NCBI GenBank assembly: GCA_002009975.1 | Contig: MTLP01000009.1 | Location: 71,396-135,395 of the forward strand | Reading direction: 5' to 3' | DNA from: Thermococcus sp. JdFR-02 | GTDB lineage: Archaea > Methanobacteriota_B > Thermococci > Thermococcales > Thermococcaceae | Length of the DNA stretch: 64,000 nucleotides | Shown: in pieces, positions 25,731 to 44,493 of the stretch | How the letters are laid out: each line of letters opens with the position of its first letter | How positions within the stretch are numbered: position 1 is the first letter of the stretch | Notes under the pieces: generated by a model | Told to the model about the DNA's origin: nothing | The model's database searches: none | Seen by the model: only the letters and a program-made list of their open reading frames with translations | Translations under genes and position numbers: made by a program

Positions 25731-26261
25731 CTATGAACATTGAATTTCTCCATCTTCGTTTCCTGTCCAAGAACAGCTATCTATCAAAGTACCATTTGAA
25801 GCATAAAGATATGCAGTATCTCCATTATTGTTCCATACAGGAGAACCTCGTCCCCAGTATAATTCCGTATCACTATTAGTTCCACTTCCTGTATGTACTG
25901 TTACAAGTTTTCCACCTTTTAGAACAAACTCAGGAAATACATAGGTATAACCTGTTTTATCTTTTAATTGCCATCCTAAAAGGTTCTCTTCTTTACATCC
26001 AAGATTCGCAATAATGACGTATTCATCGTTTAAATTAAGCCAATCATTTCCCTCAGCATCGTAATGTACGTAATATATTACTATTTCAGAAGTGCTATCA
26101 CAAAATTGTTTATCAATTTCGCTTGAAATTTCTTTTAAAAATTCACTAAATAGGTCATCATAATTTGAACTAACTCTAATCACGTGGTGGTATACAATGG
26201 AAGTTATAACTAAAACAATAATGCTCATAACAACATATTCGATAGGAGCCTGTCCTTTCAT
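25731..26261 (-). CDS. Class III signal peptide (pilin-like) protein with lamin-tail domain
   Basis: MKG|QAPIEY plus hydrophobic helix; LTD motifs NDEYVIIAN..LLGWQLKD..YVFP..VTVHTGSG..WGRGSPVWNNNGDTAYL; track ORF starts at 26282. Confidence 0.78.
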   Translation of the reverse strand: MKGQAPIEYVVMSIIVLVITSIVYHHVIRVSSNYDDLFSEFLKEISSEIDKQFCDSTSEIVIYYVHYDAEGNDWLNLNDEYVIIANLGCKEENLLGWQLKDKTGYTYVFPEFVLKGGKLVTVHTGSGTNSDTELYWGRGSPVWNNNGDTAYLYASNGTLIDSCSWTGNEDGEIQCS

Positions 26262-26369
26262 CGATAGAGAAGTACCTTGCATCTAAATTTAAGTTTTTCT
26301 TTGGATTAGCGTTCAAAAATGCTCATGAGAGGGTTTCCAAGATCTAAACAAAATGTACAAAAATGAGCA

Positions 26370-27813: not shown

Positions 27814-28221
27814 ATGATAATTCTCAGAGGAAGAAAAATTTCAAAAGGAAAGGCTAAGGGAGTTGCATTAGTTTCAAGAAAACCTCTCTCTTTCCTTGGC
27901 GGCGTTGATCCTAAAACCGGCGTTGTTAATGATTCAGAGAGTGATATAAAAGGAGAAAGTGTCAAAGACAAGATTTTGGTTTTTCCAAGAGGAAAAGGTT
28001 CTACTGTAGGTTCTTATGTGATTTATCAGCTTAAAAAAAATGGTGTTGCCCCTAAGGCAATAATTGTTGAAGACGCTGAAACTATAGTAGCTACCGGAGC
28101 CATTATTTCCGAAATTCCGATGGTGGATAAAATAGACATAAGTAAGATTAAAAGTGGTCAAATAATTGAAGTTGATGCTGATAAGGGTGTGGTGATTCTT
28201 CATGACAAGGGGAATTTATGA
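27814..28221 (+). CDS. Aconitase X swiveling subunit (phosphomevalonate dehydratase small subunit)
   Basis: LSFLGGVDPKTG, GKGSTVGSY; adjacent to large subunit. Confidence 0.88.
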   Translation: MIILRGRKISKGKAKGVALVSRKPLSFLGGVDPKTGVVNDSESDIKGESVKDKILVFPRGKGSTVGSYVIYQLKKNGVAPKAIIVEDAETIVATGAIISEIPMVDKIDISKIKSGQIIEVDADKGVVILHDKGNL

Positions 28222-29437
28222 GTGTATTAAATGCGGCTATAGAGAAACTAAGGACTCAAATGAAGCATTACTTGAAAATGCTTGTCCTGTTTGTAATGGA
28301 GACATGGTTTTAGTTAGCTTTGAGGTTAGAGAAGAAGAAACTGTTGAGGAAAAATATAGGATTGAGGAGGAAGTCTTGAATAAAGTTAAAGAGTTCTATG
28401 AAATAGGTGAAATTAAAGTCAAAGATAATGTAATAGCGATGGAAGTTATAACAATCAAGGAGTCTAATTTTGAGAAAGTTTTAGCTGAGTTTGAAAAAAT
28501 TGGTCACTGGGCAGCTTTAAAGAAGAGGAATGAAAAAATTGTGCTCTACTTATTCCCTGCTCAGCCAGCTAAAGAAGAAAATCCATTGATCGGAATTGCC
28601 TTGTTTATTGCAACAATTTTCAGCACACTTTTTGCTGGTTATGTGTTATCATTGGGATATATAGAAACGCTGGATGAGTTTAATCTGCCTGGAATAAGAA
28701 ACTTATACTTAAATGCAATTGCCTTCTCTATTAGTATTTTAGCCATACTGGGCACTCACGAAATGGGACATAAAATCGCAGCAACTATGCATAATGTTAA
28801 GTCAACTTTTCCCTATTTCATACCAGTTCCAACAATAATTGGCACTCTAGGGGCTGTAATAAGGATCAAATCCCCTATACCAACAAGGAACGCTGCTATT
28901 GATTTGGGCGTAAGTGGTCCAATTGCTGGATTTTTAGTTGCATTACCGGTTTCAATAATTGGACTAAAGCTTTCGGTAGTGGTTCCTCTTTCCTATGTAG
29001 TTCCAAAAGAAGGGGGCTTTTATTTTGGCACCAATTTGGTATTTCTAATCATTGAGAAATATCTTTTCAAAATTGGTGAAGATTCTCTTGTATTTTTACA
29101 TCCTGTTGCTATAGCTGGATGGGTTGGCATCTTAGTAACATTTTTGAATTTAATTCCAGCAGCTCAATTGGATGGTGGACATATAGCAAGGGCATTTCTC
29201 AATGAGAAAGTTCACTACTATTTAACTACTGGAATCGGATTCTCATTAATTGCATTGAGCTATCTATGGCCTGGATGGATTCTCTGGGGAATAATAATAT
29301 TGCTTATGGGAAGAGTTGGGAATCCTGGGGCATTGGATGAAGTTAGCCCAATCTCAACAAAGAGAAAGATACTTGCAATAATAGTTTTGTTGATATTTAT
29401 TCTTTCAGGAACTCCTGTGCCTATTTATACAAAATAA
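28202..29437 (+). CDS. Site-2 (M50) intramembrane protease with N-terminal Zn ribbon
   Basis: HEMGH, NLIPAAQLDGGH, CxxC...CxxC N-terminus. Confidence 0.9.
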   Translation: MTRGIYECIKCGYRETKDSNEALLENACPVCNGDMVLVSFEVREEETVEEKYRIEEEVLNKVKEFYEIGEIKVKDNVIAMEVITIKESNFEKVLAEFEKIGHWAALKKRNEKIVLYLFPAQPAKEENPLIGIALFIATIFSTLFAGYVLSLGYIETLDEFNLPGIRNLYLNAIAFSISILAILGTHEMGHKIAATMHNVKSTFPYFIPVPTIIGTLGAVIRIKSPIPTRNAAIDLGVSGPIAGFLVALPVSIIGLKLSVVVPLSYVVPKEGGFYFGTNLVFLIIEKYLFKIGEDSLVFLHPVAIAGWVGILVTFLNLIPAAQLDGGHIARAFLNEKVHYYLTTGIGFSLIALSYLWPGWILWGIIILLMGRVGNPGALDEVSPISTKRKILAIIVLLIFILSGTPVPIYTK

Positions 29438-30003
29438 TTCTTTTTCCGCTCTTTTAATATCTGTTCAATATCATAATAGATAGAATCTCTTGAAACTCCA
29501 AACACTCTTGCAACTTCAGAGATGTTTAAAACTTTGGGGTTATAGTTAAAGATAGATAATGTTTTTGATAATAGTTCTCTACGCTCCTTTATATCGAGCT
29601 CTGCAAGTTTTCTATCATTAGTCGGAACATTATATAAAACAACGCCAACAGCATAAGTTCTTCTTGTAACAGGGGTTGTATATGTAGCAATTTCAAAATC
29701 TACTATTTCTAGATTCTTTTTAAGTTCTTCATTAATTTCATCTTGCAATTTTTTTAATGCCCCTTCCTTACTTTTCCCAACTGCATATTCTATTATGGCT
29801 CCTTTTCTGCTTGGAGTTGTTTCATCAATTGCAATCACAATCTTTAAGCTTGCAAATGCGCCAAGACCAATTTCCACCTTTCCCTTTGATATCTTTCCAT
29901 GTTTTGATATAACTTCACTTTCAATTTTCTCTTTCATATGTCTGACACAATCTTCGACATTAACAGACTCGGAGTGAAGCACTATTATTTCCATGGATAT
30001 CAC
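29425..30003 (-). CDS. Hypothetical protein with C-terminal helix-turn-helix
   Basis: LNISEVARVFGVSRDSIYYDIEQI; RBS GGTGA. Confidence 0.72.
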   Translation of the reverse strand: MISMEIIVLHSESVNVEDCVRHMKEKIESEVISKHGKISKGKVEIGLGAFASLKIVIAIDETTPSRKGAIIEYAVGKSKEGALKKLQDEINEELKKNLEIVDFEIATYTTPVTRRTYAVGVVLYNVPTNDRKLAELDIKERRELLSKTLSIFNYNPKVLNISEVARVFGVSRDSIYYDIEQILKERKKNYFV

Positions 30004-30264
30004 CAGGCGAATTGGGATATATCAAATATTTTGAGGCAGGTATATAACGTCTTCTCTTTTAGATGCTTTGATAATTTATTAAGGAACAGAGAATATTTTG
30101 TTGAAAAATTAGAAATTGGATATACCGTTAAGTATTTAAAAATAATTCAAAATATGCATTTGGATATATGTTTGCTGTTCTTTGGTTCTTATTTAGTACA
30201 TTGTGTCAATATCTCAAAAATTAAGATATTATTGTTCTTTAATTAAAGAATTAGGATATTATTC

Positions 30265-30276
30265 CGCAAATTTGAG
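30265..30276. promoter_or_regulatory. Semi-palindromic box upstream of pilin-1 TATA
   Basis: CGCAAATTTGAG, 8 nt before TTTATTAA; exact reverse complement sits upstream of pilin-2. Confidence 0.55.
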
Positions 30277-30338
30277 GAGAAAAGTTTATTAATAATATAT
30301 TATAGAAAAATATGATACAATGTTACGGGGGTGTTTGT

Positions 30339-30518
30339 ATGAGGAGGGCTCAGGGTGCGGTTGAGTATTTGTTCATGGTAGCGGCTGTATTAATCATAGT
30401 AGCCATCGTAGTAAGATACCTAAGAAATGCTGCAAGCAGTGCTGGTGAAACAATTTCTAGCGGTGTTACTGAGTTAAGTAAGGAGTTAAGTGAGCAATTA
30501 AGCTCAGCAACAGGATGA
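30339..30518 (+). CDS. Class III signal peptide short pilin, copy 1 (59 aa)
   Basis: MRRA|QGAVEYLFMVAAVLIIVAIVV (Q+1/E+5); RBS GGGGTG; start fixed by alignment to copy 2. Confidence 0.88.
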   Translation: MRRAQGAVEYLFMVAAVLIIVAIVVRYLRNAASSAGETISSGVTELSKELSEQLSSATG

Positions 30519-30615
30519 ATCCTCTATTTTCAAGTTTGTTATTTTTAACTATTTCTTTTAACTTGATTATGGTAGTATAATTGTTTGTGATATACTCATT
30601 TTCTTTTAATCTTGT

Positions 30616-30627
30616 CTCAAATTTGCG
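30616..30627. promoter_or_regulatory. Semi-palindromic box upstream of pilin-2 TATA
   Basis: CTCAAATTTGCG, 8 nt before TATAAAAA. Confidence 0.55.
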
Positions 30628-30686
30628 TAAAAAACTATAAAAATCAGCTGAAACCAAAAGAATATTAAAGCATTGGAGGTGTTTGT

Positions 30687-30866
30687 ATGAGGAGGGCTCA
30701 GGGTGCGGTTGAGTATTTGTTCATGGTAGCGGCTGTATTAATCATAGTAGCCATCGTAGTAAGATACCTAAGAAGCTCCGCCAGCAGTGGGGGAGGAGCA
30801 ATTGAGAGCGGTGTTACTGAGTTAAGTAAGGAGTTAAGTGAGCAATTAAGCTCAGCAACAGGATGA
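30687..30866 (+). CDS. Class III signal peptide short pilin, copy 2 (59 aa); missing from ORF track
   Basis: MRRAQGAVEYLFMVAAVLIIVAIVVRYLRSSASSGGGAIESGVTELSKELSEQLSSATG; RBS GGAGGTG. Confidence 0.88.
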   Translation: MRRAQGAVEYLFMVAAVLIIVAIVVRYLRSSASSGGGAIESGVTELSKELSEQLSSATG

Positions 30867-30886
30867 AAGTGAACCTTAAATCTTTT

Positions 30887-33088
30887 TTAGTCTTTTAATA
30901 TGATACTCACAAAACCAAATGGTTTATTACTTTTCAATTTTATAATGTAGAAGGTATTTGATTTAAATGAATATTCAAAATTCTGTATTTCTTGTGTTAT
31001 TTCTCCAATGACATTTCCATTTATTGTAATTTGAATTGTTTGATTTTGTTCTGCAAGAAGAACTTTGAATATAATCTCATTGTACGATTTTGTAGGAACA
31101 AAGACAATATACCCCTGTCCATTAGGTGCTAATGCATAACTCCATCTATGTAGAAGTACTTCTCTTATTACAACAGGATTTTTAAGCACGAATCCATGTA
31201 TTAAATATTTCCAATCTTTAAAGTGTGTTGCAATAATTGTATTTTTTGGCAATTTGAAATGGGACATTACTTTGTTTATTAAATGCTGATCCGTTTTATC
31301 CCACTTCATTGATAAATCATAAATCCAAATATTTGATTCAAAGTATATTAATTTATACTTTCCAAGAAAATTAAGAGGATTCAGCGGAGATACTCTAAGA
31401 TCTCCAATTCCTCTCGAATCAATGTACAAAAGCACATCAGTAGTGGTCACATTTTTTTCATTAACAAATTCAATTTCTTTTAAGGTGAAGATTGGAATCC
31501 ACGCTCCGGAATCATGGAACTTCGTCACCAGTACTTTGTTAGTCGGATAAGTATTAATTAAGTCGAATATATTAAGGATTTTGCTATCTATTACACTTGC
31601 TTTTTCATTGGAATAATTAATTATGTTTACATAGAACATAGGAAGCACTAAACCGATAATAAGAATTGATGTTACTTTTTTTATGCCAATGATCTTCTTA
31701 ACATTTTCATAAATAATAGACGCACCAATACCTTGGAATATTGGAAGTATTGGTGTTAAAAGTAGATACACTCGCTCAGAATTCCAGATGGCGGAATAAT
31801 AGGGAATATTAACATGAAAATAAATCTTATTTAGGATTAGAAACAAAGCATAGATAATAGTTGTAAGTAGGGAGAAATAAGGTAATAAGTAGGTGTTATT
31901 GCTTTCCTTAACTAAGGGGTATAAGATGCCAACAAAAAAGGAAATTCCCAAAAATAGCTGTCCATTATAGATAAATGTATCTTTTAAGATTTCAAGAAAC
32001 CAGTGCATATTGTCCTTAAGTGCATACTTTGGAAAATTAGAGATAGGAGCGGAGTATGTGGACATATTAATGCTCATAGGGAATTCTAAAAGATAATAAA
32101 TCAAAAAACTTCCAAGAAGCTGTGTTACAAATATGCCAATATAAAAGCTTGCACTTTTTCTGTCCGTGAATGTGTATAAGAATGCAAGCATTATTGCATA
32201 TATCTGGAAAAGTAAATATGAATAAGGATGGACAATCAGCATACTAGTTACGGATAATAAGATCAAAAAAACATGATTATAACTTCTTTCATTTTGAAAT
32301 ATAAGGTTGTATAGAAAAATAGAAACTAGGAATAAATAATAATTAAAAAAAGCAGGAAGAAGAGGATAATTGAGATAGTAATAGTACAAATAAGAGAGTG
32401 GTGTTATTATTGTTGCGAATATTCCTGCATTTTTGTTAAAAATATTTTTAGTGACTAAATAGGTAGTTAATGGAAGGATAAACCAAATAAAGAGTTTTAA
32501 AATTAACATAGCTTGTCCGATATTATTTCTACCTACTAAACATATCCAAGCAATTATAGAATGATAACCTGCAGGATAAGTCTTTATTCTAGGATTTGCA
32601 TAATTCGGAATATTTTGTATAAACAGAGTATTCTCTTTTAAAATTTCTAAAACTTTATAAGCATGAAAGACTGGATCTTTATGTGCGTATGCAGGTATTT
32701 GTGCAAAAGGTATTTTAAGCCCAACAGCGAGAAATACTGCTAAAATTAGCCAAATAATAGTTATTTTGTCCAATTCTTTTAAATTGACCTTAATCTCTCT
32801 CTTTGATAAAATAACAGTCAAAATTGCCATTATTGTGTAAGAATGTTCTAAAGAAACATCTAACCAGCTTAGAATATGCATTAGAATGATCACAATCCCT
32901 AAACCAATTGCGGGGGCAATTGCTGCCTTTTCAATTAAATCGAAATCTTTGTTGCTAAGTATCAAAAATCCAAAATACCAAGGCAGGAGAAGAGATAAGT
33001 AAGGGCTTGATTTAGTAAGCAGTATTACTAGTATTGAAAATATTAAGAGCTTAATTCTAAGATTCAGTAAATTGGATTGTAATTTCAT
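30887..33088 (-). CDS. Polytopic membrane protein, probable GT-C glycosyltransferase (DUF6541-like)
   Basis: More than 12 TM segments; loop DPVFH...YPAGYH; DSGAWIP. Confidence 0.6.
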   Translation of the reverse strand: MKLQSNLLNLRIKLLIFSILVILLTKSSPYLSLLLPWYFGFLILSNKDFDLIEKAAIAPAIGLGIVIILMHILSWLDVSLEHSYTIMAILTVILSKREIKVNLKELDKITIIWLILAVFLAVGLKIPFAQIPAYAHKDPVFHAYKVLEILKENTLFIQNIPNYANPRIKTYPAGYHSIIAWICLVGRNNIGQAMLILKLFIWFILPLTTYLVTKNIFNKNAGIFATIITPLSYLYYYYLNYPLLPAFFNYYLFLVSIFLYNLIFQNERSYNHVFLILLSVTSMLIVHPYSYLLFQIYAIMLAFLYTFTDRKSASFYIGIFVTQLLGSFLIYYLLEFPMSINMSTYSAPISNFPKYALKDNMHWFLEILKDTFIYNGQLFLGISFFVGILYPLVKESNNTYLLPYFSLLTTIIYALFLILNKIYFHVNIPYYSAIWNSERVYLLLTPILPIFQGIGASIIYENVKKIIGIKKVTSILIIGLVLPMFYVNIINYSNEKASVIDSKILNIFDLINTYPTNKVLVTKFHDSGAWIPIFTLKEIEFVNEKNVTTTDVLLYIDSRGIGDLRVSPLNPLNFLGKYKLIYFESNIWIYDLSMKWDKTDQHLINKVMSHFKLPKNTIIATHFKDWKYLIHGFVLKNPVVIREVLLHRWSYALAPNGQGYIVFVPTKSYNEIIFKVLLAEQNQTIQITINGNVIGEITQEIQNFEYSFKSNTFYIIKLKSNKPFGFVSIILKD

Positions 33089-35315
33089 TAGAAATCACCG
33101 TTAATATTAATTTTGTATCTTTTTCTCTTGTTATGAATTTTCCAGAAATTTTAAGTGTACCTCCTTTTAGTGAGAACAGTCTTATAATGTTAACCTCATT
33201 TTTTGGTAATGTTATTATCGAATATAACTCTCCATCTAGTTCTATTATCTTGCTAACTCCTTCAAGCTCTATTACGAATTCTAAACCATTAGGAATGTTA
33301 TTTATTTTTATTTTGTTCCCGGTCTTATTTAGTCTTAATGCACTTATTTTTGAATCGTTTGAGTAAAACGTGAGATTGTACGTGTTATTGCTGATAAGGT
33401 AAATTCTACAACGTCTATTAAATATGACATTTCCAATTTGTGGGTAGATATTAATCAATTTGTAATCTTTGTTTAAGATTTCAAGTTTTCCCCACCAGCT
33501 GTGGAACGTCAATATTTTTGGCTTTGCTTCTTTTATGGAATATATCTCAATCACTTCTCCCTTTTTATTGTAGGAGTCTCCATAGAGTATTGAATAATTT
33601 GCTCTTAAATTTTGAATCAAATTCATGTATTCTCCTCTCAACTTATACTGGGAAACAAAAGCATAAGCCCACGTACTTACTATAATGTGATTAATGCCTT
33701 TTTCTTTAACCTTTTCAATAAGTTCTGAGGAGTTCATTCCATTTAGAATTAAACCAAAGTTATCAATATAATAAGGCACAGTGTCCAAGTTTAAATAAAA
33801 GTTATTCATTGGATTTATAGAGTATATTTTTCTCCCAAAATTGTTGCTATAAATATACTGTCTCAGATCTTCCCTTAGTTCTTTAGCATGAGGAGAGGAG
33901 GCTATTTTTAACTCTCCTTGTGGAGCCACAAAAGCAAGTGCATAATCTGCTATACCAAGGAAAAGTAGTACAGATACTGTTATTGCAAGAGCTTGTCTTC
34001 TGTTGAGATTCATTTTTGAAAAATAATATGCAGCCAGAATATATAAAACTAACAATGTGGCTGTTAGAAATCTCTCATTCACTATGGCAGGGGTTAGGAT
34101 ATATATAACGAGGCTAGTTAAGAACAAAAAGGATAGAGCATCTGTTATCTTGTCCTCTTTTACCTTAATCTCTTTTGAGAACTTGAAGAGAAGTATAAGG
34201 AGTATTAAAATAATTGTTAAATCAAATAATAAAAATTCAAGTTCGCTTGCTTGTACCTTGCTTAGTTTATCCCCTAAAAAGTCAAAGAAATTAAGAACCG
34301 GATTGTATCTTCCTCCCTGGATTCCATAAGTTTGGGTGATGTATGAAGGGCTTACAAGAATACCAAAGATACCCTCTATTAGAAGCTTTGGTAAAAGTAC
34401 AAAAAAACCAAGCTTTAATGGAATTTTAATATTTAAAGCTAGGATTTTTATAATTTTAAAAAGTTTATCAACATAAGAAATCTTGTAGACATATAAAATT
34501 AAAAATCCCCAGATCAGCAGAAAAATAGCTATTGGGACAATGTTTCCTACCACAGTTGCTTCGTGTAAAATTGGCACTATGAAAACTTTTCTAACGAACT
34601 CTGTTGGATAAAGTGAGACGGTAATAATCATTAGAATGGCTGTTGCAGTTAAGGAGAATAAAACGAAGAATACTTGTTTTTTGTTCAATACAACACCTAT
34701 CACATTTTTTACATAATTCCATAACTCTGGAAAGAGATAGAAGTTTATGGTTAGGAATAAACCTACTGTAAAAGGAATTGCAATAAACTTCACTGCTGTT
34801 GCAAATCCCGCAAAAAAGAGTGAATAATACGCATAAACCAGTTTGTTAGTTTTTACAAGCTTGATAAGATAGTAGATCGAAAGCAATACAAAAGGTTCCA
34901 TGATACTTTCAAACATTACTAAGGTGTTTACATGAACGAGATTTGGTTCAAGAGAGAGAATCAATGCAAGAAAGATGCCGAGTTTTTTATCTTTTAACTC
35001 TTTTCCAATATAGTATGCAATTAAAACTGACAGGGATCCAAAAAGTAATGACAATCCTCTACCAGCTATATAATTCATCCCAAAAATTCTAAGCCATAAA
35101 GCGAGCAGATAATAATAAAAGGGTGGGTGGACAGCAAAGATATCTCGATAAGGGAGATACCCTTGGTTGATTAGTCTAGCAATTAGAAGATATGTGCCCT
35201 CATCGTAATCCCAATATTCGTTCATTGGGGTTAATAGTGGAAGTCTAATTAATGTGTATAGGAGTAGAATAGCCCCAACACCGAGCAACTCCCATTTATT
35301 CTCTTTAATATCCAT
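33057..35315 (-). CDS. ArnT/PMT-like (GT39/GT83) GT-C glycosyltransferase
   Basis: DYDEGTY..IAR..GYLPYRDIFAVHPP.YYY, conserved R, E, KF, RF; C-terminal soluble domain. Confidence 0.82.
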   Translation of the reverse strand: MDIKENKWELLGVGAILLLYTLIRLPLLTPMNEYWDYDEGTYLLIARLINQGYLPYRDIFAVHPPFYYYLLALWLRIFGMNYIAGRGLSLLFGSLSVLIAYYIGKELKDKKLGIFLALILSLEPNLVHVNTLVMFESIMEPFVLLSIYYLIKLVKTNKLVYAYYSLFFAGFATAVKFIAIPFTVGLFLTINFYLFPELWNYVKNVIGVVLNKKQVFFVLFSLTATAILMIITVSLYPTEFVRKVFIVPILHEATVVGNIVPIAIFLLIWGFLILYVYKISYVDKLFKIIKILALNIKIPLKLGFFVLLPKLLIEGIFGILVSPSYITQTYGIQGGRYNPVLNFFDFLGDKLSKVQASELEFLLFDLTIILILLILLFKFSKEIKVKEDKITDALSFLFLTSLVIYILTPAIVNERFLTATLLVLYILAAYYFSKMNLNRRQALAITVSVLLFLGIADYALAFVAPQGELKIASSPHAKELREDLRQYIYSNNFGRKIYSINPMNNFYLNLDTVPYYIDNFGLILNGMNSSELIEKVKEKGINHIIVSTWAYAFVSQYKLRGEYMNLIQNLRANYSILYGDSYNKKGEVIEIYSIKEAKPKILTFHSWWGKLEILNKDYKLINIYPQIGNVIFNRRCRIYLISNNTYNLTFYSNDSKISALRLNKTGNKIKINNIPNGLEFVIELEGVSKIIELDGELYSIITLPKNEVNIIRLFSLKGGTLKISGKFITREKDTKLILTVISNEITIQFTES

Positions 35316-35319
35316 GCTT

Positions 35320-37554
35320 TCACCCCATAGAAAACTTAACTTCTTTTCCGTGAATTCTGATCTCTCTACCGGAGATTTTTGTAATTATTAAGTTCTCCCC
35401 ATCTATTTTTATTTTTTGGTCTCCAATGATAACAATCAAACTGTCAAATCTTCTTGTTTCTCCTGTTTTTATTAGTGTATTATCCTCATCAAGTAAGCTA
35501 ATATCGGTGAAAAACCTCAATGTAATAGAAAGTGGGTTTATAAATTCAAATTTTATCCCCTCTTTACTGAGTATGGCTGAGAATTCTATGCTATTTGCCT
35601 CATCGGAGTATTGAGTTATTTTATAGGTATCTTGTTCTATTTTAACGATTTTAGTCTTAAAGTTATAAGATATGTTGTTCTTATTTACAAAAAGCTCTCC
35701 AAGGGTTCCATTAAAAGAAAGCAACAGATTTCCAGAATATGATTTGATTTTTATTGGGAATAAGCTTTCTTCAAGTTTGTAAAGTTCAATAATATCTCCT
35801 ACCCGATATGCGCTTGCATATATGATAGTGTGGTTATTAAGCAAAGTCGTTGATATTGCCTTCAATCTTTCTCTTTGCTTTTGGCTTGACCAGACTATAT
35901 AGCACCAACTGCTGCAAATGAAATAATCAATATTTTCTTCCCTTAAAATGGAAAACAATGCAATTTCATTCATATCTTTAAGTACTATGAGTCCATAGAG
36001 GTCTAAGTATTTGGGCGTCGTATTTAGATTTAGATAATAAGTGTTCATAGGATTTGCAGAGTAGAATTTTCCCTCAATACCGCTCTCTTTTAGATAGATC
36101 GATAATTCATCTCGCAACTCTTTTGAATAACCACCATACTTTCGTATTATTGCTCTCTGCTTGGAATACCTGTATATAATCCCAAAATCAGCTATTGAAA
36201 GGAATAACACTCCAGCTAACACAAGAGCTATTGCCTGTTTTTTTGTTAATTTAACACTTAAAAGAAAGTCAAGCAGTATTAGGTACAAAATCACCCACAT
36301 TGGAATGAGGAACTTCTCAAATGGGACTATTGGGGCTATGAAGAAGTAAACAAAGAAGCTAACTAAAAAGAGGAGTGTTAATTTTTGCCGAATTGCACTT
36401 TTTTGAGAAGATATCTTAAACAAACTCACTATTAAAGTAAATAAGAGCAAAAGAAAGAGAGGAAACATAAAGAGTAAATCATCCAGTTCTCCAGAGGATA
36501 TATTGTGGATAATGCTTCCAATATACCAAAAGAGGTTAACTATTGGCAACATTCTTGTGCCTTGAATCAAATATGTTTGGCTGATATATTTGGGAGTTAT
36601 GAATAATCCGAAGAGTCCTTCTATAATAATTTTTGGTAAAAGTAAAATAGCGCCATATTTTAGGACTTCTTTGATATCCCTAATAATCAGAACTGCACTT
36701 TTTAAGAAGGTACTAATAAATCTTAATCTAAACAATATTGTAGTGAAGATGAGCCATATCAAAATTAAAAGAATGGAAGGCAAGATTTGGTAAAAATTAT
36801 CTAGTTCATAAAATCCGGGCACAACCATTATCTCTTTAGTTGCTTCTATTGGAAGTAAAATAAAAATAGAGGATGCAATCAAAATCATAAGAATATACGC
36901 TATCGTGATTACTTTTATTTGTTCTTTATTTAGCAGAATTTGCTTTGTTTTTGCTAAATATTCATGGAGTTTTTTACTTTTAAAAATAAGCAATGCCAGA
37001 TAAATGGAAATGGCATAGGGTATTATTGTAAATTTGACTGTAGAACCCAAACCGACTAAAAATAGAGAAAGGTATGCATATTTCTCTTTTGTTGTTTTTA
37101 GGTACTTAATGAAATAATAGAGCGAAAAAAGAACAAAAAACTCTATGAAAGTTTCTTGAACTGCTAAGAAATTTGTAAAAAGTAAAATGGGATTCATGGC
37201 TAAAAATCCGGCGAATATTATTCCCAATTTCTCGTTTTTTACTTCTCTTCCAATATAATAGGCGAGTATTAAGGAGACGAACCCTAAGGATACTGAGAAC
37301 AATCGTCCGCTGATATAATTGTCTCCGAATAATCTAAATATCAATGCTAGAATATAGTAATACAAAGGCGGATGAACGGCAAAGATGTCCCGATAGGGGA
37401 GATACCCTTGGTTGATTAGTCTAGCAATTAGAAGATATGTGCCCTCATCGTAATCTACATTTTCATCGAAATTATGTAAAACTAAATATGTTCGCGTAAA
37501 TAAGTAGAATAGGATTATAACAAGGAATGCAATAATAACTTTTCTATTTTTCAC
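35320..37554 (-). CDS. ArnT/PMT-like (GT39/GT83) GT-C glycosyltransferase, paralog
   Basis: Same DYDEGTY...HPP motif and topology as neighbour. Confidence 0.82.
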   Translation of the reverse strand: MKNRKVIIAFLVIILFYLFTRTYLVLHNFDENVDYDEGTYLLIARLINQGYLPYRDIFAVHPPLYYYILALIFRLFGDNYISGRLFSVSLGFVSLILAYYIGREVKNEKLGIIFAGFLAMNPILLFTNFLAVQETFIEFFVLFSLYYFIKYLKTTKEKYAYLSLFLVGLGSTVKFTIIPYAISIYLALLIFKSKKLHEYLAKTKQILLNKEQIKVITIAYILMILIASSIFILLPIEATKEIMVVPGFYELDNFYQILPSILLILIWLIFTTILFRLRFISTFLKSAVLIIRDIKEVLKYGAILLLPKIIIEGLFGLFITPKYISQTYLIQGTRMLPIVNLFWYIGSIIHNISSGELDDLLFMFPLFLLLLFTLIVSLFKISSQKSAIRQKLTLLFLVSFFVYFFIAPIVPFEKFLIPMWVILYLILLDFLLSVKLTKKQAIALVLAGVLFLSIADFGIIYRYSKQRAIIRKYGGYSKELRDELSIYLKESGIEGKFYSANPMNTYYLNLNTTPKYLDLYGLIVLKDMNEIALFSILREENIDYFICSSWCYIVWSSQKQRERLKAISTTLLNNHTIIYASAYRVGDIIELYKLEESLFPIKIKSYSGNLLLSFNGTLGELFVNKNNISYNFKTKIVKIEQDTYKITQYSDEANSIEFSAILSKEGIKFEFINPLSITLRFFTDISLLDEDNTLIKTGETRRFDSLIVIIGDQKIKIDGENLIITKISGREIRIHGKEVKFSMG

Positions 37555-41080: not shown

Positions 41081-42371
41081 CTTTTTCTTTCTTCAAGCTT
41101 TGTTCTTTAGGGCGGGATACAATGTTTGAAAATTCGGCCATTGAGCAGGAAAGTGATACCATTTTAAAGTCTAAAACTCATACCATACTTTGAGATGAAG
41201 CGTTCGGTAACGGTCAAACTCCAGCCCTCGAAAGAGCAGGAGAAAAACCTCTTCGAGTTAGCCCAAGCAACGGCAATAATCTGGAATAAAATTAACTACG
41301 AGAGGCTCAAACAGTTCAAAGAATTCGGCAAAATAGACTTTAATGGAACGGAAAAGGAAGCTTATCACGCCTTCAAAAACTGGGTTGGAGGCTCAACTGT
41401 TCAACAATTAGCCAGAAAAAACGCTGAAGCGTGGAGGAGCTTCTTCGCCCTCAGCAGGAAGAAAAAGTCTAAGGAACTTCCTGAATGGTTCAAACCAAAA
41501 CCACCGAAATTCATCAGAGAGAAAAACGGGAGAAAACTGTTCATCATTTCCCTCAGGAATGACCAGTACAGGATTAAGGGCAACGTTCTTGAACTGAGAA
41601 GACTCGGAAAGTTCGGGAAGTTGGAAATTCAATTCAAAGGAAGAATACACTTGAGAGGCAAGCAAGGGCGGTTAGAAATAACTTACGATGAGGTAAAGCG
41701 TAAATGGTATGCTCACATCAGCTTTACAGTGGAGGAGAAGCTTGACGGCAGGAAGTTAGTTAAACTTCCAAGGAAACCAAAGGGTGACCTTTCAGCGGGA
41801 ATAGACTTGGGGGTAAACAACCTTATGGCCGTTTACGTGGAAAATGGGGAAAGCTTTCTCGTGAACGGGAGGCCTTTGAAATCAATAGCCTTCTACTGGC
41901 AGAAAAGGATTGGGGAGTATCAGTCGAGGCTGAATAAATCTGGAGCTAAAACGAGCAGGAAGCTCAAGATAATGCACGAGAGGGCAAAACTACAGGCGAA
42001 ACATTACATCAATACTGTTGTGAGACAGGCGGTTATGAGACTTTACGAGCTTGGAGTTTCCAGAATCGTCGTCGGCTATCCTAAGGGTATTAGCAGAAAC
42101 TCCGATAAGGGGAGAAAGCAGAATTACCTACTCTCCCACGTCTGGCGGTTTAATTATGTTATCAAACGTTTGACTGAAGTTGCTGAGGAGTATGGTATTG
42201 AAGTTGTCGTGGTTGATGAGGCTTTTACTTCTCAGTCTTGTCCCCTCTGTGGCCAACGCCATTCTAATGGTAGAATTTCTCGTGGTTTGTTTGAGTGCCA
42301 CGGGGAGGGTGTTGTCATGAATGCTGACTTGGTTGGTGCCTTTAACATCTTGAAAAAGGCTGTAAAAACGA

Positions 42372-44493
<2,122 letters not shown>

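What the first reader, a model, noticed from the sequence alone, without database searches (positions are those of the whole stretch)
30330..30867. Tandem mini-pilins identical except for an 11-codon variable cassette
Seen: the two 180-nt genes match at every base over 9 upstream nt plus codons 1-29, and over the last 19 codons plus stop. They differ at 13 of 33 nt in codons 30-40 (NAASSAGETIS versus SSASSGGGAIE), and the intergenic flanks are unrelated. A simple recent duplication would not give this pattern. Known: constant-variable-constant pilin architecture underlies gene-conversion variation in Neisseria, and Thermococcales are polyploid with active gene conversion. Inference: either cassette exchange diversifying the pilus (for example against viruses), or concerted evolution of two functionally distinct subunits. 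Copy 2 falls below the ORF cutoff and is easily missed.
Basis: partly seen in the sequence, partly recalled or inferred. Interest (0 to 1): 0.8.

Follow-up and report, generated by a model that had tools for sequence, protein, structure and literature searches.

The report
Tandem archaeal mini-pilins, partly gene-converted
Two neighbouring genes for tiny pilus subunits in a heat-loving archaeon were made identical at both ends by recombination between the copies while an old, different 11-codon middle survived, which is a tidy but fairly ordinary case of gene-family evolution rather than a cassette-switching system.

Summary
The two 180-nt genes (30339-30518 and 30687-30866) are identical over 97 nt (30330-30426) and 61 nt (30459-30519). 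All 13 differences lie in 30427-30458, and the flanks are unrelated. Both are class III signal peptide proteins (PF04021). They fit the small stand-alone major pilins described for the Epd-type pilus of Thermococci (PMC4858521).

The middle block is old. Its synonymous divergence is 0.69, against 0 of 33 synonymous sites in the arms. A recent duplication followed by selection therefore does not fit. The best reading is segmental gene conversion between tandem paralogues.

The closest relative, G009, has three tandem copies in the same locus. Two of them are homogenised over a different tract, -58 to +77.

A Neisseria-like cassette system is not supported:
- the genome holds no further arms or cassettes;
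- both genes are complete;
- no G4 motif or reverse transcriptase was found;
- only two cassette types occur with these arms in a 5.8-billion-protein search.

Independent assemblies and contigs reproduce the structure. Whether selection keeps the middle apart is open. Interest is modest.

The parts
30339..30518 (+). Mini-pilin gene copy 1 (59 aa plus stop), a class III signal peptide protein
   Evidence: PF04021 at 38.6 bits against a cut-off of 23.7, E 9.1e-10. The start is set by homologue alignment A1. AF2 predicts a single helix over residues 2-58, pLDDT 88.
30687..30866 (+). Mini-pilin gene copy 2 (59 aa plus stop)
   Evidence: PF04021 with the same score. The same protein is on record as P0002 from 4 contigs of other assemblies.
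30330..30426 (+). N-arm of copy 1 (97 nt): ribosome-binding site tail, signal peptide and hydrophobic core helix. Identical to 30678-30774.
   Evidence: 0 mismatches. Found only twice in the genome.
30678..30774 (+). N-arm of copy 2
30426..30458 (+). Variable block of copy 1, codons 30-40 (NAASSAGETIS)
   Evidence: 13 of 33 nt differ from copy 2, pS 0.69, pN 0.30. Unique in the genome.
30774..30806 (+). Variable block of copy 2, codons 30-40 (SSASSGGGAIE). GC 0.64 against 0.42 for block 1.
30459..30519 (+). C-arm of copy 1 (61 nt: codons 41-59, stop, 1 nt). Identical to 30807-30867.
   Evidence: 0 mismatches. Found only twice in the genome. This part varies across the family, so the identity is not explained by protein constraint.
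30807..30867 (+). C-arm of copy 2
30520..30677 (+). 158-nt AT-rich spacer (GC 0.24), unrelated to the sequence upstream of copy 1. Holds T-runs after the copy 1 stop and an A/T-rich TATA-like box (about 30635-30644) roughly 50 nt before the copy 2 start.
   Evidence: Read directly; GC. No similarity to the other flanks. Promoter and terminator roles are inferred, not tested.
30277..30292 (+). Purine-rich stretch plus TTTATTAA, a TATA-like box roughly 50 nt before the copy 1 start (inferred promoter, different in sequence from that of copy 2)
   Evidence: Read; inference only.
29425..30003 (-). Conserved 192-aa neighbour with a weak C-terminal helix-turn-helix. Possible regulator.
   Evidence: Only sub-threshold HTH hits. 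A homologue lies beside the mini-pilin in 35 of 40 loci examined.
30887..33088 (-). 733-aa polytopic membrane protein, DUF6541. First of three large membrane proteins downstream.
   Evidence: PF20176 E 1.9e-9. A DUF6541 or PMT_2 homologue lies beside the pilin in 23 of 40 loci.
33057..37554 (-). Two PMT_2-family (GT-C type) glycosyltransferase-like genes (33057-35315 and 35320-37554)
   Evidence: PF13231 E 2.6e-17 and 3.7e-19. Weak, sub-cutoff Agl23 matches.

Best explanation
The two genes are real, tandem and probably separately transcribed. They encode 59-residue type IV pilin-like subunits of the small, head-less kind that serves as major pilin of the Epd-type (clade 1 / system 1) pilus of Thermococci and methanogens.

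Each preprotein has a short basic leader (MRRA) and then an invariant Q-x-A-x-E motif. A class III signal peptidase is inferred to cut before the Q, leaving a single long helix of about 55 residues. The first ~25 residues would form the buried core of the filament and the rest would lie on its surface.

The constant-variable-constant pattern is a mosaic made by homologous recombination (segmental gene conversion) between old tandem paralogues. The N-terminal 97 nt and the C-terminal 61 nt were recently copied from one gene to the other. The 32-nt middle keeps the old divergence.

Two causes for the surviving middle remain open. Its roughly 40% mismatch density may stop conversion tracts, or selection may keep two isoforms apart.

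The outcome is two stable pilin isoforms. They have identical assembly surfaces and differ in six residues, with shifted Ser/Thr positions and a shifted Glu, just where the helix leaves the hydrophobic core. No dedicated switching machinery is involved.

What is shown: the mosaic, its age structure, the lack of other cassettes, and a parallel tract in a relative. What is inferred: the processing site, filament topology, separate promoters, and any functional difference between the isoforms.
For: 1. Arms and middle have different ages. The arms show 0 of 144 coding nt different and 0 of 33 synonymous sites. The middle shows 13 of 33 nt different, pS 0.69, pN 0.30. That equals the between-species level, since G000 versus G009 arms have pS 0.54-0.94.

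2. pN/pS in the middle is below 1, so there is no sign of recent positive selection.

3. The C-arm varies across the family (alignment A1, 36 sequences, conserved only over residues 1-29). An unlinked third paralogue (C1:291619-291804) keeps a similar C-terminal peptide but differs at most codons. Protein constraint therefore cannot explain the nucleotide identity.

4. The flanks and the 158-nt spacer are unrelated. This excludes a recent head-to-tail duplication.

5. The syntenic locus of the closest relative G009 has three tandem copies. It lies between the same M50 peptidase, 192-aa protein and DUF6541 genes, and its first pilin equals P0004, which a source names as a Thermococcus paralvinellae protein. 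Copies 1 and 3 are identical from -58 to +77 except for 2 nt and about 70% identical afterwards. Copy 2, which lies between them, is diverged throughout. Partial homogenisation with other borders therefore recurs in this locus.

6. The middle of G000 (61% identity) matches the unconverted background seen between G009 paralogues (70% in both the middle and the C part).

7. Family and machinery. PF04021 is above its cut-off. A Peptidase_A24 gene lies next to another mini-pilin, with a T2SSE ATPase on contig C20, and further ATPases are on C29 and C2. Section 9 of PMC4858521 (read) describes ~70-aa stand-alone major pilins with multiple paralogues in this system. Passages of PMC13705601 say Thermococcales encode an Epd pilus.

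8. The structure is not an assembly artefact. A 394-nt contig of run X2 spans copy 1 with both unique flanks and no differences. A 151-nt contig of X3 spans block 1, the C-arm and the flank. Both exact proteins are on record from a 908,576-nt contig, which cannot be this assembly because its longest contig is 337,916 nt.
Against: The direction and number of recombination events cannot be reconstructed.

The rival order of events is not excluded. That is whole-gene homogenisation followed by import of a short middle patch from a lost third copy or a foreign allele. The GC-rich block 2 hints at it (GC 0.64 against 0.42).

Orthology of the two block types with those of G009 is only weakly indicated. 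Block 1 is nearest G009 copy 1 (13 differences against 16-17). Block 2 is nearest G009 copies 3 and 2 (15-16 differences against 20). Each comparison rests on only 33 nt. P0003 and P0005 carry near-identical blocks that end in S or E, which blurs the two types.

Spacers of G000 and G009 are not alignable, so it is unknown whether the duplication predates their split.

Concerted evolution between strains could not be shown directly. Only Logan contigs were available and both metagenome scans were empty.

No expression, processing or filament data exist here. No homologue of solved structure was found (best PDB hit E 0.54).
Confidence: 0.7

Rival explanations
1. Patch import. The two genes were first made wholly identical, by whole-gene conversion or by replacement. 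One then received a short foreign middle segment by recombination, with the arms as homology. The donor would be a third array member since lost (G009 still has three copies) or DNA from another strain or species.
For: Block 2 has GC 0.64 in a 38% GC genome, against 0.42 for block 1 and 0.41-0.44 for the arms. 9 of the 13 changes from block 1 to block 2 are AT to GC. G009 shows that a three-copy array exists in this lineage. The identity ends exactly at the limits of the gene, as expected if whole-gene homology set the tract.
Against: The GC excess comes partly from Gly and Ala codons and rests on 33 nt. No donor is present in the genome. A 32-nt import with both ends inside a 180-nt gene is a very short tract. 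This rival is still recombination between pilin paralogues or alleles, so it differs from the best explanation only in the order of events.
Confidence: 0.17
2. A programmed pilin variation system of the Neisseria pilE/pilS type. Blocks would be exchanged at high rate between copies, or between the copies of a polyploid chromosome, to vary the pilus surface, for example against viruses.
For: The constant-variable-constant layout resembles pilE (recalled, not tested). The variable block lies in the part predicted to be surface exposed (inference).
Against: There are no silent or additional blocks or arms in a 99.99%-complete genome. Both copies are complete genes. No G4 motif occurs within 28000-33000 on either strand. 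Among the 7 distinct proteins returned from the search of 5.8 billion cluster representatives (5 hits at E <= 0.001 of 6 candidates, plus 2 further cluster members), the four with G000-type arms carry only the two block types, each with one single-residue variant: N30S, and I39V. Contigs from other samples show block 1 in its own flanks, unswapped. With two donors only two states are possible.
Confidence: 0.05
3. A recent duplication followed by fast adaptive divergence of the loop only.
For: All differences fall in an exposed, low-complexity segment that is also variable across the family.
Against: 5.5 of the 13 differences are synonymous (pS 0.69) and pN/pS is below 1, while the arms have no synonymous change at all. 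The flanks and spacer are unrelated, so the copies are not a recent tandem duplicate. The substitutions are not adenine-specific and the genome has no RVT_1 match, so a diversity-generating retroelement is excluded.
Confidence: 0.04
4. An assembly artefact: two alleles or strains of one gene stitched in tandem, or arms collapsed by the assembler.
For: The source is a 44-contig assembly and short-read assemblers handle 97-nt repeats poorly. Logan contigs break exactly at the arm borders.
Against: Contigs from other studies join copy 1 to both of its unique flanks (X2, 394 nt, no differences). Others join the C-arm of copy 1 through the spacer into the N-arm of copy 2 (X1 record 2, and X4 records 16-18 in a relative about 95% alike). 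Both proteins occur on a 908,576-nt contig of another assembly. The relative G009, a one-contig genome, has the same kind of array.
Confidence: 0.03

Closest known systems
Small stand-alone major pilins of the archaeal clade 1 / system 1 (Epd-type) type IV pilus (M. maripaludis MMP1685/EpdE family; PMC4858521 section 9, read; PMC13705601 passages)
   Same: A class III signal peptide followed by a protein of only about 60-70 residues with no globular head. Encoded away from the assembly locus. Several paralogues per genome. Thermococci are stated to have this system.
   Different: Membership in the arCOG of EpdE could not be tested here. The papers, as far as I read them, describe paralogues but not a pair identical except for an 11-codon block.
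Concerted evolution of tandem paralogues by gene conversion in prokaryotes (PMC6053082 and PMC4632066, seen as search listing and abstract only)
   Same: Paralogues within a genome are more alike than orthologues between genomes. The tracts are mosaic and identity extends to synonymous sites.
   Different: Here the tracts are very short (97 and 61 nt). They leave a 32-nt island, and the genes encode a surface filament subunit.
Neisseria pilE/pilS antigenic variation
   Same: A pilin with constant parts around a variable segment. Recombination between pilin copies is the source of the pattern.
   Different: No silent promoter-less donor loci, no G4 initiator, only two full genes and two stable block types.
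UpsA/UpsB mixed pili of Sulfolobales (PMC7064770, abstract and passages) and the two-archaellin filament of Methanocaldococcus villosus (PMC8821640, abstract)
   Same: Archaeal type IV filaments built from two paralogous major subunits. In UpsA a roughly 15-residue low-conservation region sets recognition specificity and can be exchanged without loss of assembly.
   Different: Those subunits are larger, have globular domains and differ along their length. No function is known for the block here.
Legionella pneumophila pilA1/pilA2 (PMC13170364, passages)
   Same: Two neighbouring major-pilin paralogues with different roles.
   Different: They are 72% identical, with differences along the whole length, and the paper does not mention gene conversion (0 occurrences of the term).

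Membership tests
Class III signal peptide / archaeal type IV pilin-like proteins (Pfam PF04021) | Match to the family model above its curated cut-off | tested here: met
   38.6 bits against 23.7, E 9.1e-10, residues 2-28, for both copies.
Class III signal peptide / archaeal type IV pilin-like proteins (Pfam PF04021) | Short basic leader, conserved Q...E motif, then a hydrophobic helix of about 20 residues | tested here: met
   M1, R2, A4, Q5, G6, A7, E9, Y10, L11 and F12 are invariant in 36 sequences. That the motif is QxSxExxxL with cleavage before Q is recalled, not from a call.
Class III signal peptide / archaeal type IV pilin-like proteins (Pfam PF04021) | A prepilin peptidase and a type IV filament ATPase in the same genome | tested here: met
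   PF01478 at C20:12625-12981, directly after a 54-aa mini-pilin. There are four T2SSE matches, on C29 (two), C2 and C20.
Class III signal peptide / archaeal type IV pilin-like proteins (Pfam PF04021) | Cleavage of the leader and assembly into a filament | not testable with these tools
   Needs mass spectrometry or electron microscopy of sheared filaments.
EpdE-type major pilin of the clade 1 pilus (arCOG06620 and related families) | Small (~70 aa) protein, stand-alone gene, multiple paralogues, organism with a clade 1 system | tested here: met
   59 aa. No assembly genes lie within 18000-44460 of the window. Further paralogues are on C1 and C20. The description is from PMC4858521 section 9.
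EpdE-type major pilin of the clade 1 pilus (arCOG06620 and related families) | Assignment to the arCOG, or significant similarity to MMP1685 | not testable with these tools
   No arCOG library is on hand. NCBIfam gave no family.
pilE/pilS-type cassette antigenic variation | Silent, promoter-less donor cassettes sharing conserved segments with the expressed gene | tested here: not met
   The arms occur twice and each block once in 2.36 Mb. The next best hits are chance level.
pilE/pilS-type cassette antigenic variation | A G-quadruplex-forming initiator near the expressed locus | tested here: not met
   0 motifs on either strand in 28000-33000.
pilE/pilS-type cassette antigenic variation | Many block variants in the population | tested here: not met
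   Four distinct proteins with G000-type arms carry two block types plus one single-residue variant of each. The sampling is thin.
Diversity-generating retroelement target | Adenine-specific differences between template and variable repeat, and a reverse transcriptase | tested here: not met
   The substitution spectrum is mixed, with 4 of 13 changes from A. No RVT_1 match in the genome.
Concerted evolution by gene conversion | In the converted segment, paralogues in one genome are more alike than orthologues between genomes, including at synonymous sites | tested here: met
   Arms are 100% identical within G000 against 58-77% to any G009 copy. G009 copies 1 and 3 have a 5' tract of 135 nt with 2 differences.
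Concerted evolution by gene conversion | The same pattern repeated in independent strains (arms change together) | tested here: inconclusive
   In run X4 a contig like copy 1 carries 5 synonymous arm changes and breaks at the arm border. Copy 2 of that strain was not recovered from the contigs.

The most novel reading that the evidence does not exclude
The 11-codon island may not be a passive leftover. Selection may hold it apart because the two isoforms give the pilus two different surfaces.

The arms would be kept identical so that both subunits fit one assembly machine and one filament lattice. The block shifts the Ser/Thr and Glu positions at the point where the helix emerges. It would thereby change either O-glycosylation by the conserved neighbouring GT-C/PMT-like enzymes or partner recognition, as the short low-conservation region of UpsA does in Sulfolobales. 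The unrelated promoters would let the cell choose or mix the isoforms.

This would be a minimal two-state surface-variation device in a hyperthermophile. It would also be a first genomic pointer to an archaeal pilin O-glycosylation pathway.
Probability: 0.2. Interest if true: 0.6.

Novelty: new member of a known kind. Interest (0 to 1): 0.33.

Why it matters
It is a very clean, small example of segmental gene conversion in an archaeal surface-filament gene. 158 nt are identical even at silent sites, around a 32-nt island that is as old as the species split.

It also flags a pair of mini-pilin genes that gene callers can miss, because copy 2 is 59 aa.

If the island is maintained by selection, it marks the six residues that matter for whatever the Epd-type pilus of Thermococcales binds or is decorated with. 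The function of that pilus in this order is not known from the papers I read.

The conserved neighbourhood with PMT-like enzymes offers a testable lead on pilin glycosylation. As it stands, it does not reveal a new mechanism.

Tried and rejected
1. Strain-level loci. The search for related loci in metagenome contigs matched 599 stretches but confirmed none. A degenerate DNA pattern for the N-terminal peptide found 0. A direct test of concerted evolution between strains was therefore not possible.

2. Read-level check. Only Logan contigs were served, so rare swapped alleles, transcript ends and expression cannot be judged. The block 2 region (30746-30839) had no cover in any of the 4 runs, including the near-identical X1. 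I read this as the contig builder dropping one branch, not as absence. Contig depths (X1 133.8 against 87.6; X4 14.4 against about 10) look like arms at double depth. The tool states that such depths are not copy numbers, so I do not use them as evidence.

3. Closer relatives. A whole-family search of 97 genomes gave 19 with a match at E <= 1e-14. None is closer than G009 (79% identity), and the genus of G000 has no other species held.

4. Spacer homology between G000 and G009 to date the duplication. Only z of about 4 for two pairs, not usable.

5. Solved structures. The best hit is E 0.54. A fold search on a single-helix model was judged meaningless and not run.

6. NCBIfam gave no family for the pilins, the 192-aa protein or DUF6541.

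7. Rfam on 29900-31000 gave no match at E <= 1. The minus-strand ORF at 30466-30657 (63 aa) and the plus-strand ORF at 29938-30246 have no Pfam match at E <= 1. I take both as chance ORFs.

8. Diversity-generating retroelement and G4-initiated switching were rejected.

10. Earlier notes of this scan had nothing on this place or sequence.

Full report
**The observation**

The region holds two 180-nt open reading frames on the plus strand, at 30339-30518 and 30687-30866. I compared them at an offset of 348 nt.
- They are identical from 30330 to 30426. This covers 9 nt upstream, codons 1-29 and the first base of codon 30.
- They are identical again from 30459 to 30519. This covers codons 41-59, the stop and one more base.
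- All 13 differences lie between 30427 and 30458. The peptides there are NAASSAGETIS and SSASSGGGAIE, and six residues differ.
- Outside these limits the two contexts match only at random level. This includes the 158-nt spacer (GC 0.24).
- The repeat finder gives the same 193-nt repeat at 93% identity.
- Placing 13 differences within 32 of 190 aligned bases has P = 5e-10 under uniform placement.

**What the genes are**

Both products match Pfam PF04021 (class III signal peptide) at 38.6 bits against a cut-off of 23.7.

I aligned 36 homologues taken from the syntenic loci of related genomes and from the protein search. Residues 1-29 are almost invariant, including M1, R2, A4, Q5, G6, A7, E9, Y10, L11 and F12. 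Residues 30-59 are variable.

From recall, the family motif is QxSxExxxL with cleavage before the Q. On that basis I infer a 4-residue leader (MRRA) and a mature subunit of about 55 residues with Glu at position 5.

AlphaFold2 with this alignment gives one continuous helix over residues 2-58, mean pLDDT 88. No relative with a solved structure was found (best E 0.54).

The genome has the machinery elsewhere:
- a Peptidase_A24 gene directly after another 54-aa mini-pilin on contig C20;
- four T2SSE ATPase matches, on C29 (two), C2 and C20.

Section 9 of Makarova et al. 2016 (PMC4858521, read) describes exactly this class. These are major pilins of the clade 1 system of methanococci, methanobacteria and thermococci. 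They are about 70 aa, typically stand-alone, and often have multiple paralogues. Passages of a 2026 survey (PMC13705601) state that Thermococcales encode an Epd pilus whose main pilin lacks a globular domain.

I could not test arCOG membership.

**Age structure of the mosaic**

I counted synonymous and non-synonymous differences by segment with the Nei-Gojobori method.

| Comparison | Segment | nt different | Synonymous (pS) | Non-synonymous (pN) |
|---|---|---|---|---|
| G000 copy 1 vs copy 2 | arms | 0 of 144 | 0 of 33 sites | 0 |
| G000 copy 1 vs copy 2 | middle | 13 of 33 | 5.5 of 8.0 sites (0.69) | 0.30 |
| G000 vs closest relative G009 | arms | 17-27 per arm | 0.54-0.94 | not restated here |

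The middle is therefore about as old as a species split and shows no excess of amino-acid change. The arms are younger than any detectable mutation. Fisher's test on synonymous sites gives p = 7e-5 to 6e-6.

Protein constraint cannot explain the identity of the C-arm.
- That part varies across the family.
- An unlinked third paralogue (C1:291619-291804, 62 aa) keeps a similar C-terminal peptide but differs at most codons.

A recent head-to-tail duplication is excluded because the spacer and flanks are unrelated.

**Relatives**

The protein was found in 24 of 24 other genomes of the same family and in 0 of 16 genomes outside it. In a whole-family search, 19 of 97 genomes matched at E <= 1e-14. 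None is closer than G009, at 79% identity.

The neighbourhood is conserved across the 40 fetched loci L020-L059. These include two windows each on G000 and G009, and each has only 1.5-kb flanks.
- 35 of the 40 have a homologue of the 192-aa protein beside the pilin.
- 23 of the 40 have a DUF6541 or PMT_2 membrane protein.

My motif scan of the loci then held gave two patterns.
- At least 17 loci pair the conserved pilin with a second, very different mini-pilin.
- Only G000 (two copies) and G009 (three copies) have repeats of the conserved type.

G009's first copy is identical to P0004, which a source names as a Thermococcus paralvinellae protein.

In G009, copies 1 and 3 are identical from 58 nt upstream to codon 26 except for two bases. 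After that they are about 70% identical. Copy 2 lies between them and is diverged throughout. So the same locus in a second lineage shows partial homogenisation with different borders. The 61% identity of the G000 middle equals the unconverted background between G009 paralogues.

The G000 blocks lean weakly towards different G009 copies.
- Block 1 shows 13 differences to G009 copy 1, against 16-17 to the others.
- Block 2 shows 15-16 differences to copies 3 and 2, against 20 to copy 1.

Thirty-three bases cannot carry a phylogeny, and P0003 and P0005 blur the two types.

**Is it a cassette system?**

The evidence is against it.
- BLASTN of the whole 190-nt unit, of each arm and of each block against the 2.36-Mb, 99.99%-complete genome finds the arms twice and each block once. 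Nothing else rises above chance.
- Both copies are complete genes with a GGTG ribosome-binding site.
- No G4 motif lies within 28000-33000.
- The differences are not adenine-specific, and there is no RVT_1 match in the genome.
- The search of 5.8 billion protein clusters returned 5 hits from 6 candidates. With cluster members this makes seven distinct sequences. The four with G000-type arms carry only the two block types, each with one single-residue variant (N30S, and I39V).

**Is it an artefact?**

Only contigs, not raw reads, were available.
- A 394-nt contig of run X2 joins copy 1 to both of its unique flanks without a difference.
- A 151-nt contig of X3 spans block 1, the C-arm and the flank.
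- X1 has a contig from the C-arm of copy 1 through the spacer into the N-arm of copy 2.
- X4, which holds a relative about 95% alike, shows the same joints. Its copy-1-like contig starts at the arm border. It carries five synonymous changes in the arms and three changes in the block, one of which is N30S.
- Both exact proteins are also on record from a 908,576-nt contig. This assembly's longest contig is 337,916 nt.

The X4 data hint that the arms evolve together in another strain. The second copy was not recovered there, so this stays open.

**Mechanism and rivals**

I conclude, at about 0.7, that the pattern is a product of segmental gene conversion between old tandem paralogues. It yields two stable pilin isoforms with identical assembly parts.

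Two causes for the surviving island remain open: a mismatch barrier to tract extension, or selection for two surfaces.

The main rival (about 0.17) changes only the order of events. It proposes full homogenisation and then import of a short patch from a lost third copy or foreign DNA. The GC-rich block 2 (0.64 against 0.42) hints at this.

Programmed switching, selection-driven divergence after a recent duplication, and mis-assembly each get 0.05 or less.

**Comparison with known systems, and novelty**

- Partial gene conversion between neighbouring pilin genes is a known kind of event.
- Precedents exist for two major subunits in one archaeal filament: UpsA/UpsB and the two archaellins of M. 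villosus (abstract).
- A short low-conservation region of UpsA sets recognition specificity.
- My paper searches on gene conversion in archaeal pilins, on Thermococcales major pilins, on DUF6541 (0 papers) and on archaeal pilin O-glycosylation with GT-C enzymes turned up no description of this pair or of the pilin-PMT neighbourhood.

I rate it a new member of a known kind, of modest interest.

Noticed in passing
window 30887-37554 (minus strand); loci L020-L059: Three consecutive large polytopic membrane proteins (DUF6541, PMT_2, PMT_2, of the GT-C glycosyltransferase type) lie directly downstream of the pilins. A DUF6541 or PMT_2 homologue flanks the mini-pilin in 23 of 40 loci examined, despite flanks of only 1.5 kb. 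This suggests a link between the Ser/Thr-rich pilin tail and protein O-glycosylation. No paper holds the term DUF6541.
   Followed up: partly
window 29425-30003 (minus strand): A 192-aa protein with a weak C-terminal helix-turn-helix lies divergently next to the pilin in 35 of 40 loci. It has no Pfam or NCBIfam family above threshold. It is a candidate pilin regulator.
   Followed up: partly
L021 (G009:C1:835891-839061), minus strand: There are three tandem mini-pilins in the syntenic locus. Copies 1 and 3 share a 135-nt tract (-58 to +77) with 2 differences, while the copy between them is diverged throughout.
   Followed up: yes
window 30774-30806: Block 2 has GC 0.64 in a 38% GC genome. 6 of its 11 codons end in G or C, against 1 of 11 in block 1. 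This is a possible trace of a foreign or lost donor, but it rests on only 33 nt.
   Followed up: partly
G000:C1:291619-291804: A third, unlinked 62-aa paralogue has a C-terminal peptide close to the C-arm (SSGVNELSQELSEQLSS). It is diverged at the nucleotide level all along, so it takes no part in the homogenisation.
   Followed up: yes
window 25731-26282 (minus strand): A 183-aa protein has a weak class III signal-like N-terminus (16.2 bits, E 0.043) and a lamin tail domain (E 4.6e-24). It is possibly another pilin-like surface protein 4 kb from the pair.
   Followed up: no
G000:C29:1947-4304 and C29:6893-7259: One open frame of 1097 aa carries two T2SSE ATPase domains in tandem. It lies close to two further PF04021 genes. 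This looks like a second type IV filament locus with a duplicated or fused ATPase.
   Followed up: no
window 41195-42469: An IS605 OrfB/TnpB-like gene (OrfB_IS605 plus the Cas12f1-like TNB domain) lies 10 kb downstream.
   Followed up: no
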